A DNA stretch of 15,393 bases from positions 1-15,393 of IMG/VR virus record IMGVR_UViG_2675903609_000002; one strand, written 5' to 3'. How positions within the stretch are numbered: the first letter of the stretch is position 1; each line of letters begins with the position of its first letter. Both the position numbers and the translations under genes were made by a program. Positions 12,539 to 15,393 of the stretch are shown here, in pieces. The stretch is from a virus (taxonomy: Duplodnaviria; Heunggongvirae; Uroviricota; Caudoviricetes). Below the pieces are notes generated by a model. It had not been told where the DNA came from and searched no databases. It saw only the letters and a program-made list of their open reading frames with translations.

Positions 12539-12685
12539 ATGACAAAACAACTCAGTCCTTACCAGGACAAAATTCACAAACACATACTACGTGATCGCTT
12601 CCTGTCCAGCTTCAAGCAGCATGGTCGATTCCGGGCTGAGTTGGAAAAAGTGAAGCTGATGCAGAAGGAGAAAGGTCATGAGTAA
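12539..12685 (+). CDS. Small ORF, 48 aa, between cII and O (not in ORF track)
   Basis: SD GGGAG 8 nt upstream of ATG 12539. Translation [48 protein letters not shown]; overlaps the O start by 8 nt. Confidence 0.4.
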
Positions 12686-13538
12686 TCTTGCAACCGTAAC
12701 ACATTTAAGGCCTTCACAACGGCCTGTGGAGCGTCGTGTGGCAGAAGTTGAAGATGGTTATACCCGTCTTGCAAATGCCCTGTATGAAGAGCTTATCGGC
12801 GCAGATTTAACGAAAAATCAGAGCAAGGTTGCCCACGCCATATGCCGTAAAACATACGGCTACGGTAAAAAGATGGATCGCATCTCTGATAGTCAGTTAG
12901 CTCAAATTACCAGGCTGCCAAGACAGAAGGTAAACAAGGCCAAGAATGAGCTTATCGCGATGAAGGTTATCCTTCGCGAAGGCCAGCAAATCGGGCCTAA
13001 CAAGAACATCGAGGAATGGCAAATAGAAGGGTGTCACTACTCTGGTGATAATGTCACTGCATTGGTGACAAAAAGTGTCACCAAAACGGTGACAGCGCTG
13101 TCACCAAAACAGGGACACACAAAAGAAACTATTACAAAAGAAAAAAGAAATAATAAAAACACTATGTCCGAAAGTGTTCGGACGGAGTGTGAAAAATCAC
13201 ATGACCGTCACGAAGAAACCGACAAGGCATTCGAGGAAATATTCTGGTGTGCAGGCATGCGGAAAGCCGGGAAGAAAAACGCAGCTTCGGCATTCAGAAC
13301 ACAGTTCAGGGAATGGCGTAAAACTACCAGGGGTACGGCAAGCGAGTTTGCCACGATGCTGGCAGAAGACATCGCATGCAGGAATGGTAAGCAGTTCGGA
13401 TTCGACAGGTTGTTACCATCGAGCTACCTGAACGGTCAACGCTGGAACGACGAGAAGCCAGAAACTATTCAACCACAATCCAAACCATCATCCGCAATCA
13501 CCGTATCGAAAACTGGCTACGTGTTTTTCGACAGGTGA
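12678..13538 (+). CDS. O: Replication initiator O-like protein, 286 aa
   Basis: N-terminal ~100 aa (...[58 protein letters not shown]...) parallel lambda O. SD AGGAGA upstream; iteron origin inside the gene. Confidence 0.9.
13032..13165. other. Replication origin: four 19-bp iterons (13032-13050, 13052-13070, 13076-13094, 13099-13117) plus AT-rich region (13118-13165)
   Basis: Palindromic iterons TGTCACY-N5-RGTGACA, two with an AAAAC spacer, then about 48 bp of A-rich DNA. Lambda ori inside O has the same architecture (TCCCTC-AAAAC-GAGGGA). Confidence 0.75.
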
Positions 13539-13541
13539 ACC

Positions 13542-13649
13542 ATGAAATCAAAAATCAAATCGCTACTGGTTGCTGGTTATAACCACGGCTGGTTAAGTAT
13601 TTCGTTTGTCGATTTCTGGTTTAAAAATCTCAATCTGAGGGAATCATGA
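13542..13649 (+). CDS. Small hydrophobic ORF, 35 aa, bridging O and the primase-helicase
   Basis: ATG 13542 lies 3 nt after the O stop. Its stop TGA overlaps the primase-helicase ATG (ATGA). Translation MKSKIKSLLVAGYNHGWLSISFVDFWFKNLNLRES. Weak SD. Confidence 0.3.
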   Translation: MKSKIKSLLVAGYNHGWLSISFVDFWFKNLNLRES

Positions 13650-15393
13650 CGCCAAGTGAACTTAGCGACCTGCTTTGGGCGCAGGTTGACAGGGTGGCTC
13701 CGCACCTGTTGCCAAACGGCAAGAAAGAGGGGCATGAGTGGGTTGCCGGTAACGTCAATGGTGACAAGGGAAACAGCCTTAAGGTCAACCTTAGCGGCAA
13801 GAAAAAATGGGCTGATTTCGCTGAGGGAGACGGCGGTGACATGCTTGATTTGTGGATGGCATGTCGTGGAATTAACCTGCATCAGGCTATGCAGGAAGCG
13901 AAAGCATTTCTCGGTATCAAGGATGACGATCACCATTTCGATGCCAAACGTGAGAAAAAATTCTCCAGACCTGATCGCAAGAAAATCGCCCGCTACGTTA
14001 CCAGAACAGAATCCCATCTTGAGTACCTGCAATCGCGTGGCATATCGCCAGAAGTCGTAAAGCGCTACGAGGTTGTCAGCGGCAAGGTGTGGAATGGAGA
14101 ACGAGAACTTGATGCACTGGTGCTTCCGTACAAACGCGATGGTGAGTTGTTGCAGGTCAAGCGAATCAGCACTGAGCGCCCGGACGGGAAGAAAGTCATT
14201 ATGGCAGAAGGTGATTGCGAACCTTGTCTGTTCGGATGGCAGGCTCTGGACGCTGGCGTGAGGGCGGTTGTACTTTGCGAAGGCGAAATTGATTGTATGA
14301 GCTATGCGCAATACGGCATCTCGGCGTTATCCGTGCCGTTTGGTGGAGGGAAAGGCGCTAAGCAACAGTGGATTGAGTTTGAGTACCACAACCTCGACAG
14401 GTTTGAGGAAATATTCATCTCGATGGACGTTGATGATGTTGGTCGTGAAGCCGCAAGGGAAATCGCAAGCCGACTCGGTGAACATCGTTGCCGTCTTGTT
14501 ACTCTGCCGTACAAAGACATCAACGAATGCCTGATGAACGGTGTTACCGAGGATGAAATCTGGCAGTACATCGGCACGGCATCCTACTTTGATCCTGAAG
14601 AACTCTACAGCGCGCGAGAGTTTTACCAGGACACTATCAACGCTTTCTACGGCAAGCAGCAGTATCTGTTTAATCCACCGTGGGAATCTCTGGCAGATAA
14701 ATTCCAGTTTCGTGAGGCCGAGTTGACGCTGGTCAATGGTGTGAACGGTCACGGAAAAACGGAGGTTGTCGGGCATATGGCACTTGAGGCAATGCGTCAG
14801 GGTGTGAAGACGTGCATCGCGTCACTTGAGCTGAAGCCTGGTATTCTCCTTAAGCGCCTTACCCGTCAGGCGACGTGCTGCAAGATGCCGCCAGTGCTGG
14901 AAATTGACTCTGCATTTAAATTTTATGACGAAAGACTTTGGGTGTTTGGCCTGACTGGAACGGCGAAAGCCGACAGGCTGATCGAAATATTCGACTACGC
15001 TCGCCGCCGATACGGCATCCAGTTATTCATCATCGACAGCCTGATGAAATGCGGCATAGGTGACGATGACTATAACGGGCAGAAAGCATTTGTTGACTCG
15101 ATTTGTGACTTCAAAAACAAAACAAACTCCCACGTCATTCTCGTTACTCACTCCAGAAAAGGAGATAGCGAAGAAAAACCAACCGGGAAAATGGACGTAA
15201 AAGGCTCTGGAGCGATAACAGACCTGACAGACAACCTTTTTATCATCTGGCGTAACAAGGCTCGCGAGAGAGCGTTACAGAGAGTTCAGAGTGGTGAAAA
15301 GATGTCAGAGAAGGACGAACAGCTACTGGCATCTCCGGCATCTGTTTTGATGCTTGAAAAACAACGTAACGGCGAAGGTTGGGAAGGTGGTGT
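13646..15393 (+). CDS. Bifunctional DNA primase (toprim) / DnaB-like replicative helicase, 5' partial (3' end beyond window)
   Basis: Open frame from ATG 13646 (SD GAGGG) to the window end with no stop, 582 codons. Absent from the ORF track because it is open-ended. Toprim motifs VLCEGEIDCMSY and SMDVDDVGREAA; Walker A GVNGHGKT; Walker B-like LFIIDSLMK. Confidence 0.85.
   Translation, partial: MTPSELSDLLWAQVDRVAPHLLPNGKKEGHEWVAGNVNGDKGNSLKVNLSGKKKWADFAEGDGGDMLDLWMACRGINLHQAMQEAKAFLGIKDDDHHFDAKREKKFSRPDRKKIARYVTRTESHLEYLQSRGISPEVVKRYEVVSGKVWNGERELDALVLPYKRDGELLQVKRISTERPDGKKVIMAEGDCEPCLFGWQALDAGVRAVVLCEGEIDCMSYAQYGISALSVPFGGGKGAKQQWIEFEYHNLDRFEEIFISMDVDDVGREAAREIASRLGEHRCRLVTLPYKDINECLMNGVTEDEIWQYIGTASYFDPEELYSAREFYQDTINAFYGKQQYLFNPPWESLADKFQFREAELTLVNGVNGHGKTEVVGHMALEAMRQGVKTCIASLELKPGILLKRLTRQATCCKMPPVLEIDSAFKFYDERLWVFGLTGTAKADRLIEIFDYARRRYGIQLFIIDSLMKCGIGDDDYNGQKAFVDSICDFKNKTNSHVILVTHSRKGDSEEKPTGKMDVKGSGAITDLTDNLFIIWRNKARERALQRVQSGEKMSEKDEQLLASPASVLMLEKQRNGEGWEGG

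What the first reader, a model, noticed from the sequence alone, without database searches (positions are those of the whole stretch)
13542..15393. Replication module pairs a lambda-like O with a primase-helicase fusion whose N-terminus looks like a cysteine-less zinc-binding domain
Instead of a lambda P helicase loader, O is followed by a small coupled ORF and a large protein with toprim primase motifs fused to a DnaB/gp4-like helicase. Its N-terminal 70 aa (...HEWVAGNVNGDKGNSLKVNLSGKKKWADFAEGDGGDMLDLWM...) has the spacing of a DnaG-type zinc-binding domain, but the positions where I would expect Cys ligands carry acidic or small residues. If real, template recognition would work without zinc.
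Basis: partly seen in the sequence, partly recalled or inferred. Interest (0 to 1): 0.5.

Follow-up and report, generated by a model that had tools for sequence, protein, structure and literature searches.

The report
Zinc-less primase-helicase of a lambdoid prophage
A P22-like prophage replaces lambda's helicase loader with a T7-gp4-like primase-helicase. Its N-terminal "zinc finger" keeps the DnaG fold but has lost all four zinc ligands, a feature shared by a very large family on phages and plasmids and apparently not yet described.

Summary
The window is 99.9% identical to Shigella phage Sf101. O (12678-13538) is followed by a 35-codon ORF (13542-13649) whose stop overlaps the ATG (13646) of a 626-aa protein that runs off the window.

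That protein matches T7 gp4 (E 2.5e-23) and Twinkle. All T7 primase catalytic residues map to invariant or near-invariant positions: K172, K182, E212, D261, D263, D291.

In about 200 distinct homologues, G35 and D57 are essentially invariant and positions 38 and 60 vary. No Cys/His set exists and scattered cysteines do not co-occur. Several non-ligand DnaG residues are retained. The same domain heads other Toprim proteins on plasmids.

The gene and module are already annotated (ES18 gp59-61, epsilon34 gp50-52). I found no description of the ligand loss in a primase that looks catalytically intact.

The most likely mechanism is a self-loading primase-helicase recruited by O's non-lambda C-terminal domain and priming without zinc. 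That mechanism is inferred, not shown. Interest is moderate.

The parts
12678..13538 (+). Replication initiator O. The N-terminal ori-binding domain (aa 1-157) is lambda-O-like. The C-terminal domain (aa ~160-286) is unrelated to lambda O's.
   Evidence: Pfam Phage_rep_O E 1.1e-37, aa 20-114. TIGR01610 E 1.6e-30. 49% identity to lambda O over aa 1-157 only. The C-terminal part matches phrog_33384 and has no Pfam hit.
13032..13117 (.). Putative ori iterons inside the O gene: four copies of TGTCAC-N7-8-GGTGA(C/T)A spaced 20-24 bp apart.
   Evidence: the repeat finder families D1/D2. They lie at the same position within O as the annotated lambda iterons and the annotated epsilon34 ori.
13119..13160 (.). 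A/T-rich stretch next to the iterons, the presumed unwinding region. It also marks the mosaic breakpoint.
   Evidence: Sequence read directly. ACAAAAGAAA repeat D4. Homology to Stx2 phages and epsilon34 starts at about window 13154.
13542..13649 (+). 35-aa ORF translationally coupled to the primase-helicase (ATGA overlap). Function unknown.
   Evidence: phrog_21848 E 4.4e-26. Annotated as ES18 gp60 and epsilon34 gp51. Intact 35-codon alleles at 100% and 71% aa identity in 44 phage records. dN/dS about 0.2 in frame, and both other frames contain stops.
13646..13921 (+). Primase-helicase aa 1-92: DnaG-type (CHC2) zinc-binding-domain fold with no zinc ligands.
13922..13999 (+). Linker between the ZBD-like domain and the RNA polymerase domain (aa ~93-118).
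   Evidence: Lower pLDDT (77-85) and variable length in the family alignment.
14000..14605 (+). Primase RNA-polymerase domain (aa ~119-320): N-subdomain plus TOPRIM, with catalytic K172, K182, E212, D261, D263, D291.
   Evidence: Toprim_2 E 2.6e-12. hhalign against T7 gp4 99.8%. Invariant or near-invariant columns. Foldseek hits to T7 gp4, Aquifex DnaG and Twinkle at E 1e-11 to 1e-13.
14606..15393 (+). Linker and SF4 (gp4/DnaB-type) helicase domain with Walker A GVNGHGKT. Truncated by the window end; 44 more codons in Sf101.
   Evidence: AAA_25 28.2 bits (above the 27-bit cut-off); DnaB_C 22.4 bits (below its 27-bit cut-off). Alignment to T7 gp4 helicase through aa 539. Full length taken from L001:5147-7027.

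Best explanation
This is the replication module of a P22-like (Lederbergvirus) prophage. It works in an 'initiator plus self-loading primase-helicase' mode rather than lambda's O-P-DnaB-DnaG mode.

1. O binds four iterons inside its own gene through its lambda-like N-terminal domain. This is by homology.
2. O's C-terminal domain is unrelated to lambda O's P-binding part. It is inherited as one block with the 35-aa ORF and the primase-helicase. It most likely docks the primase-helicase at the unwound A/T-rich region. This is inferred.
3. The 626-aa protein is a T7-gp4/Twinkle-type hexameric SF4 helicase fused to a DnaG-type primase with a complete catalytic centre. It therefore needs neither DnaC/P nor host DnaG. 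It would hand primers to host Pol III. This is inferred.
4. Its N-terminal domain is a true structural homologue of the DnaG CHC2 zinc ribbon, but all four zinc ligands are replaced (C/H/C/C to G35/N38/D57/E60). There is no compensating Cys/His set.
5. Invariant G35 and D57 and near-invariant W32, W55 and F58 probably hold the two knuckles together without metal. This is inferred.
6. Several non-ligand DnaG residues are retained and the domain is strongly conserved. It most likely still does the ZBD's job in priming, namely template engagement and primer stabilisation or hand-off together with the RNA polymerase domain. Zinc would then be dispensable for that function in this lineage.
For: Module identity and layout.

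O domains: the N-terminal part is lambda-like and the C-terminal part is not. O's C-terminal part is nearly identical between the window and epsilon34 from [12 protein letters not shown] onward, while the N-terminal parts are clearly diverged. The Stx2-phage DNA match also begins in mid-O.

gp4/Twinkle homology.

Catalytic residues: T7 K122, K128, E157, D207, D209, D237 align to K172, K182, E212, D261, D263, D291. K172, E212, D261 and D263 are invariant and D291 near-invariant across 63 homologues at 38-85% identity. K122 is essential for catalysis in T7 (PMC2910064). Strong purifying selection on the gene: dN/dS 0.036 against epsilon34.

Register with DnaG.

No ligands in 203 distinct homologue sequences. 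G35 is in 131/132 and D57 in 132/132 representatives. Positions 38 and 60 vary. Scattered Cys at 33/34, 48 and 56 do not co-occur.

Shared non-ligand residues with E. coli DnaG: K41, S44, G51, K53, F58, G61, G64.

Family size: 2805 clusters at 50% identity match the domain at E<=1e-3, and 430 plasmids.

Precedent for self-loading: Twinkle (PMC9723800 abstract, seen).
Against: No biochemical data exist for any member that I could find, so primase activity, metal content and the O interaction are all unproven.

The only studied Cys-less relative, human Twinkle, has no primase activity (PMC9860392). It has, however, also lost its Mg-binding residues, which this protein keeps.

In T7, removing the ZBD abolishes template-directed priming (PMC2910064). 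A degenerate ZBD could therefore mean altered or relaxed specificity rather than retained recognition.

The AF2 model gives no information on metals, and I could not inspect its coordinates to see what D57 contacts.

The 2805-cluster count may include zinc-containing ZBDs at its weak end, because only the best 150 were inspected.
Confidence: 0.6

Rival explanations
1. The ZBD-like domain has been repurposed. It keeps the fold but no longer reads template DNA. Instead it serves as a protein-protein module, binding O's C-terminal domain, the 35-aa protein, host SSB or the clamp loader, or it acts as a Twinkle-like 'doorstop' ssDNA binder that helps the helicase. Priming would then be sequence-relaxed and carried out by the RNA polymerase domain alone.
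For: Human Twinkle's Cys-less N-terminal domain retains DNA binding that supports helicase processivity without any primase function (PMC9860392). O's C-terminal domain, the small ORF and the primase-helicase are co-inherited. The AF2 model of residues 1-330 has a high overall confidence (pTM 0.89). This could reflect a fixed docking of the ZBD-like domain on the RNA polymerase domain, but the domain interface was not examined.
Against: The same domain heads Toprim proteins on plasmids that have no O, no 35-aa ORF and other or no helicase partners. Its conserved role therefore goes with the Toprim primase, not with O. Non-ligand residues shared with DnaG ZBDs are retained.
Confidence: 0.2
2. 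The domain still binds a metal, but through oxygen or nitrogen ligands (D57 plus E60, N38 or neighbouring residues). The metal could be Mg2+, Mn2+, Ca2+ or Zn2+ in a non-thiolate site.
For: D57 replaces Cys61 and is invariant. In this particular phage, E60 and N38 also sit at ligand positions.
Against: Only one of the four positions is a conserved potential ligand. Position 35 is an invariant Gly. Position 60 is mostly T/S/A/G. Position 38 is S/D/N/A/H. No alternative conserved Cys/His/Asp/Glu cluster emerges.
Confidence: 0.1
3. The primase half is a relic, as in metazoan Twinkle. The protein is only a helicase and priming is left to host DnaG or RNA polymerase.
For: The epsilon34 paper mentions only a 'putative helicase' in this region (PMC2629481). 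Loss of zinc ligands accompanies loss of primase activity in human Twinkle (PMC9860392).
Against: All catalytic Toprim acidic residues and the NTP-binding lysines are invariant or near-invariant across the family. The gene is under strong purifying selection. From established knowledge, a gp4-type helicase lacks the DnaB N-terminal domain through which DnaG is recruited.
Confidence: 0.07

Closest known systems
Bacteriophage T7 gene 4 primase-helicase (PDB 1NUI, 1Q57, 5IKN, 6N7I)
   Same: One polypeptide carries an N-terminal ZBD-position domain, a linker, a Toprim RNA-polymerase domain, a second linker and an SF4 RecA-type helicase. The catalytic residues K122, K128, E157, D207, D209 and D237 are all matched. 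E 2.5e-23 by sequence and hhalign 99.8%.
   Different: T7's ZBD is a short C4 zinc ribbon (aa 1-54). It does not align with this N-terminus, which is of the longer DnaG CHC2 type and has no ligands. T7 works with its own DNA polymerase. This phage has an O-type initiator and, on established knowledge of P22-like phages, no polymerase gene.
Bacterial DnaG zinc-binding domain (CHC2 zinc ribbon, Pfam PF01807; PDB 1D0Q, 2AU3)
   Different: All four ligands are replaced: C40/H43/C61/C64 become G35/N38/D57/E60. The Pfam score is 12.7 bits against a cut-off of 24.9. The domain is fused to a gp4-type helicase rather than to a DnaB-binding C-terminal domain.
Metazoan Twinkle mtDNA helicase (PDB 7T8B, 8E2L)
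   Different: Human Twinkle has also lost the Mg-binding site and has no primase activity (PMC9860392). Here every catalytic residue is kept.
Replication modules of Salmonella phages ES18 (gp59-gp61) and epsilon34 (gp50-gp52), Shigella phage Sf101 and coliphage mEp043
   Same: These are the same genes in the same order. Sf101 is 99.9% identical in DNA. Epsilon34 has the identical O C-terminal part, a 71%-identical 35-aa ORF and a primase-helicase with dN 0.027.
   Different: There is nothing structural. The published descriptions call the protein only a putative helicase or primase/helicase and do not mention the ligand-less ZBD (PMC2629481).
Lambda O-P replication module
   Same: The O N-terminal domain is 49% identical. 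Iterons plus an A/T-rich ori lie inside the O gene, which follows cII in the early-right operon.
   Different: O's C-terminal domain is unrelated. P is absent. A 35-aa ORF and a primase-helicase take its place.

Membership tests
T7 gp4 / Twinkle-type bifunctional primase-helicase | Toprim RNA-polymerase domain with the catalytic acidic residues and NTP-binding lysines | tested here: met
   E212, D261, D263, D291, K172 and K182 align to T7 E157, D207, D209, D237, K122 and K128. They are invariant or near-invariant in 63 homologues. Toprim_2 E 2.6e-12.
T7 gp4 / Twinkle-type bifunctional primase-helicase | SF4 RecA-type helicase domain C-terminal to the primase in the same chain | tested here: met
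   Alignment to T7 gp4 through the helicase motifs, including Walker A GVNGHGKT. AAA_25 is above its cut-off (28.2 against 27 bits). DnaB_C is a sub-threshold hit only (22.4 against 27 bits).
T7 gp4 / Twinkle-type bifunctional primase-helicase | N-terminal Cys4 zinc-binding domain | tested here: not met
   No alignment to the T7 ZBD. No Cys/His ligand set in the query or in 203 distinct homologue sequences.
T7 gp4 / Twinkle-type bifunctional primase-helicase | Primase and 5'-3' helicase activities; hexamer formation | not testable with these tools
   Requires purified protein.
DnaG-type CHC2 zinc ribbon (Pfam PF01807) | Three-dimensional fold of the DnaG ZBD | tested here: met
DnaG-type CHC2 zinc ribbon (Pfam PF01807) | Cys-His-Cys-Cys zinc ligands | tested here: not met
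   C40/H43/C61/C64 of E. coli DnaG align to G35/N38/D57/E60. The ligands are absent family-wide.
DnaG-type CHC2 zinc ribbon (Pfam PF01807) | Score above the Pfam gathering threshold | tested here: not met
   12.7 bits against 24.9, E 0.11, although colinear at 26-92 of 98 profile positions.
DnaG-type CHC2 zinc ribbon (Pfam PF01807) | Bound zinc ion | not testable with these tools
   Needs metal analysis. The sequence predicts none.
Lambda O-type initiator | Phage_rep_O N-terminal DNA-binding domain | tested here: met
   PF04492 E 1.1e-37. 49% identity to lambda O aa 1-157.
Lambda O-type initiator | Iterons and an A/T-rich ori within the O coding sequence | tested here: met
   Four 19-20 bp repeats at 13032-13117 followed by an A/T-rich stretch. 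The position is comparable to the annotated lambda iterons.
Lambda O-type initiator | C-terminal domain of lambda O (the P-interacting part) | tested here: not met
   No similarity beyond aa 157. No Pfam hit. The region belongs to phrog_33384.
Lambda P / DnaC-type helicase loader | A loader gene following the initiator | tested here: not met
   The gene after O in the window is the 35-aa ORF, then the primase-helicase. In Sf101 the next genes are ninA and ninB.

The most novel reading that the evidence does not exclude
A very large clade of DnaG-type primases on mobile elements has replaced the Cys3His zinc centre of the template-recognition domain by a metal-free core. The clade includes phage primase-helicases (Stx2-converting phages among them), plasmid Toprim proteins and Toprim-D5 fusions. 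The core would be held by invariant Gly35 and Asp57 plus near-invariant Trp32, Trp55 and Phe58. These enzymes would still prime DNA synthesis at defined sites. That would show that zinc is a dispensable structural prop rather than a requirement for template recognition by bacterial-type primases.
Probability: 0.45. Interest if true: 0.55.

Novelty: new variant of a known kind. Interest (0 to 1): 0.4.

Why it matters
For DnaG, T7 gp4 and T4 gp61, the zinc-binding domain is held to be the element that recognises the priming trinucleotide and helps hand off the primer (PMC2910064). Loss of the zinc ligands has so far been tied to a dead primase, human Twinkle (PMC9860392).

Here the ligands are gone but the whole catalytic centre is intact. 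The domain is also strongly conserved in a family of about 2800 sequence clusters on phages and plasmids.

If these enzymes prime normally, they are a natural experiment. They would separate the fold of the ZBD from its metal, and they would give a simple, zinc-independent primase-helicase to study or use.

The protein is the replicative helicase-primase of several Stx2-converting and serotype-converting phages of E. coli, Shigella and Salmonella. Their replication would therefore bypass host DnaB, DnaC and DnaG. This matters for models of Shiga-toxin phage induction that are built on lambda O-P.

Tried and rejected
1. A profile of the N-terminal domain searched against PDB sequences found no DnaG ZBD, only a chance hit at E 1.2. 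Sequence profiles alone miss the relationship. It appears only with hhalign against DnaG and by fold.

2. hhalign of the N-domain against the T7 gp4 ZBD gave no alignment. The domain is DnaG-type, not T7-type.

3. I tested for an alternative or 'migrated' metal site formed by the scattered cysteines at positions 33/34, 48 and 56. They do not co-occur (Fisher p 0.13-1.0). Only 3 of 203 sequences have all three. Rejected.

4. I looked for an experimentally characterised primase with the same domain. R751 TraC, the IncP conjugative primase, shows no significant match to the N-domain (hhalign probability 0.3%), so it gives no precedent.

5. O's C-terminal domain was compared with the DUF1376 initiator that precedes a distant homologue. 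There is no similarity. Pfam finds nothing in O's C-terminal part even at E 10.

6. Literature searches for a description of a Cys-less ZBD in phage or prophage primase-helicases found nothing specific. The ES18 genome paper is not held. The epsilon34 paper says only 'putative helicase'. The Dictyostelium Twinkle paper does not discuss zinc.

7. The AFDB50 fold library was unavailable, so BFVD was used instead.

8. The antisense ORF 13577..14311 (244 aa) is dismissed as spurious. The sense gene is under strong purifying selection (dN/dS 0.036) and has homologues throughout.
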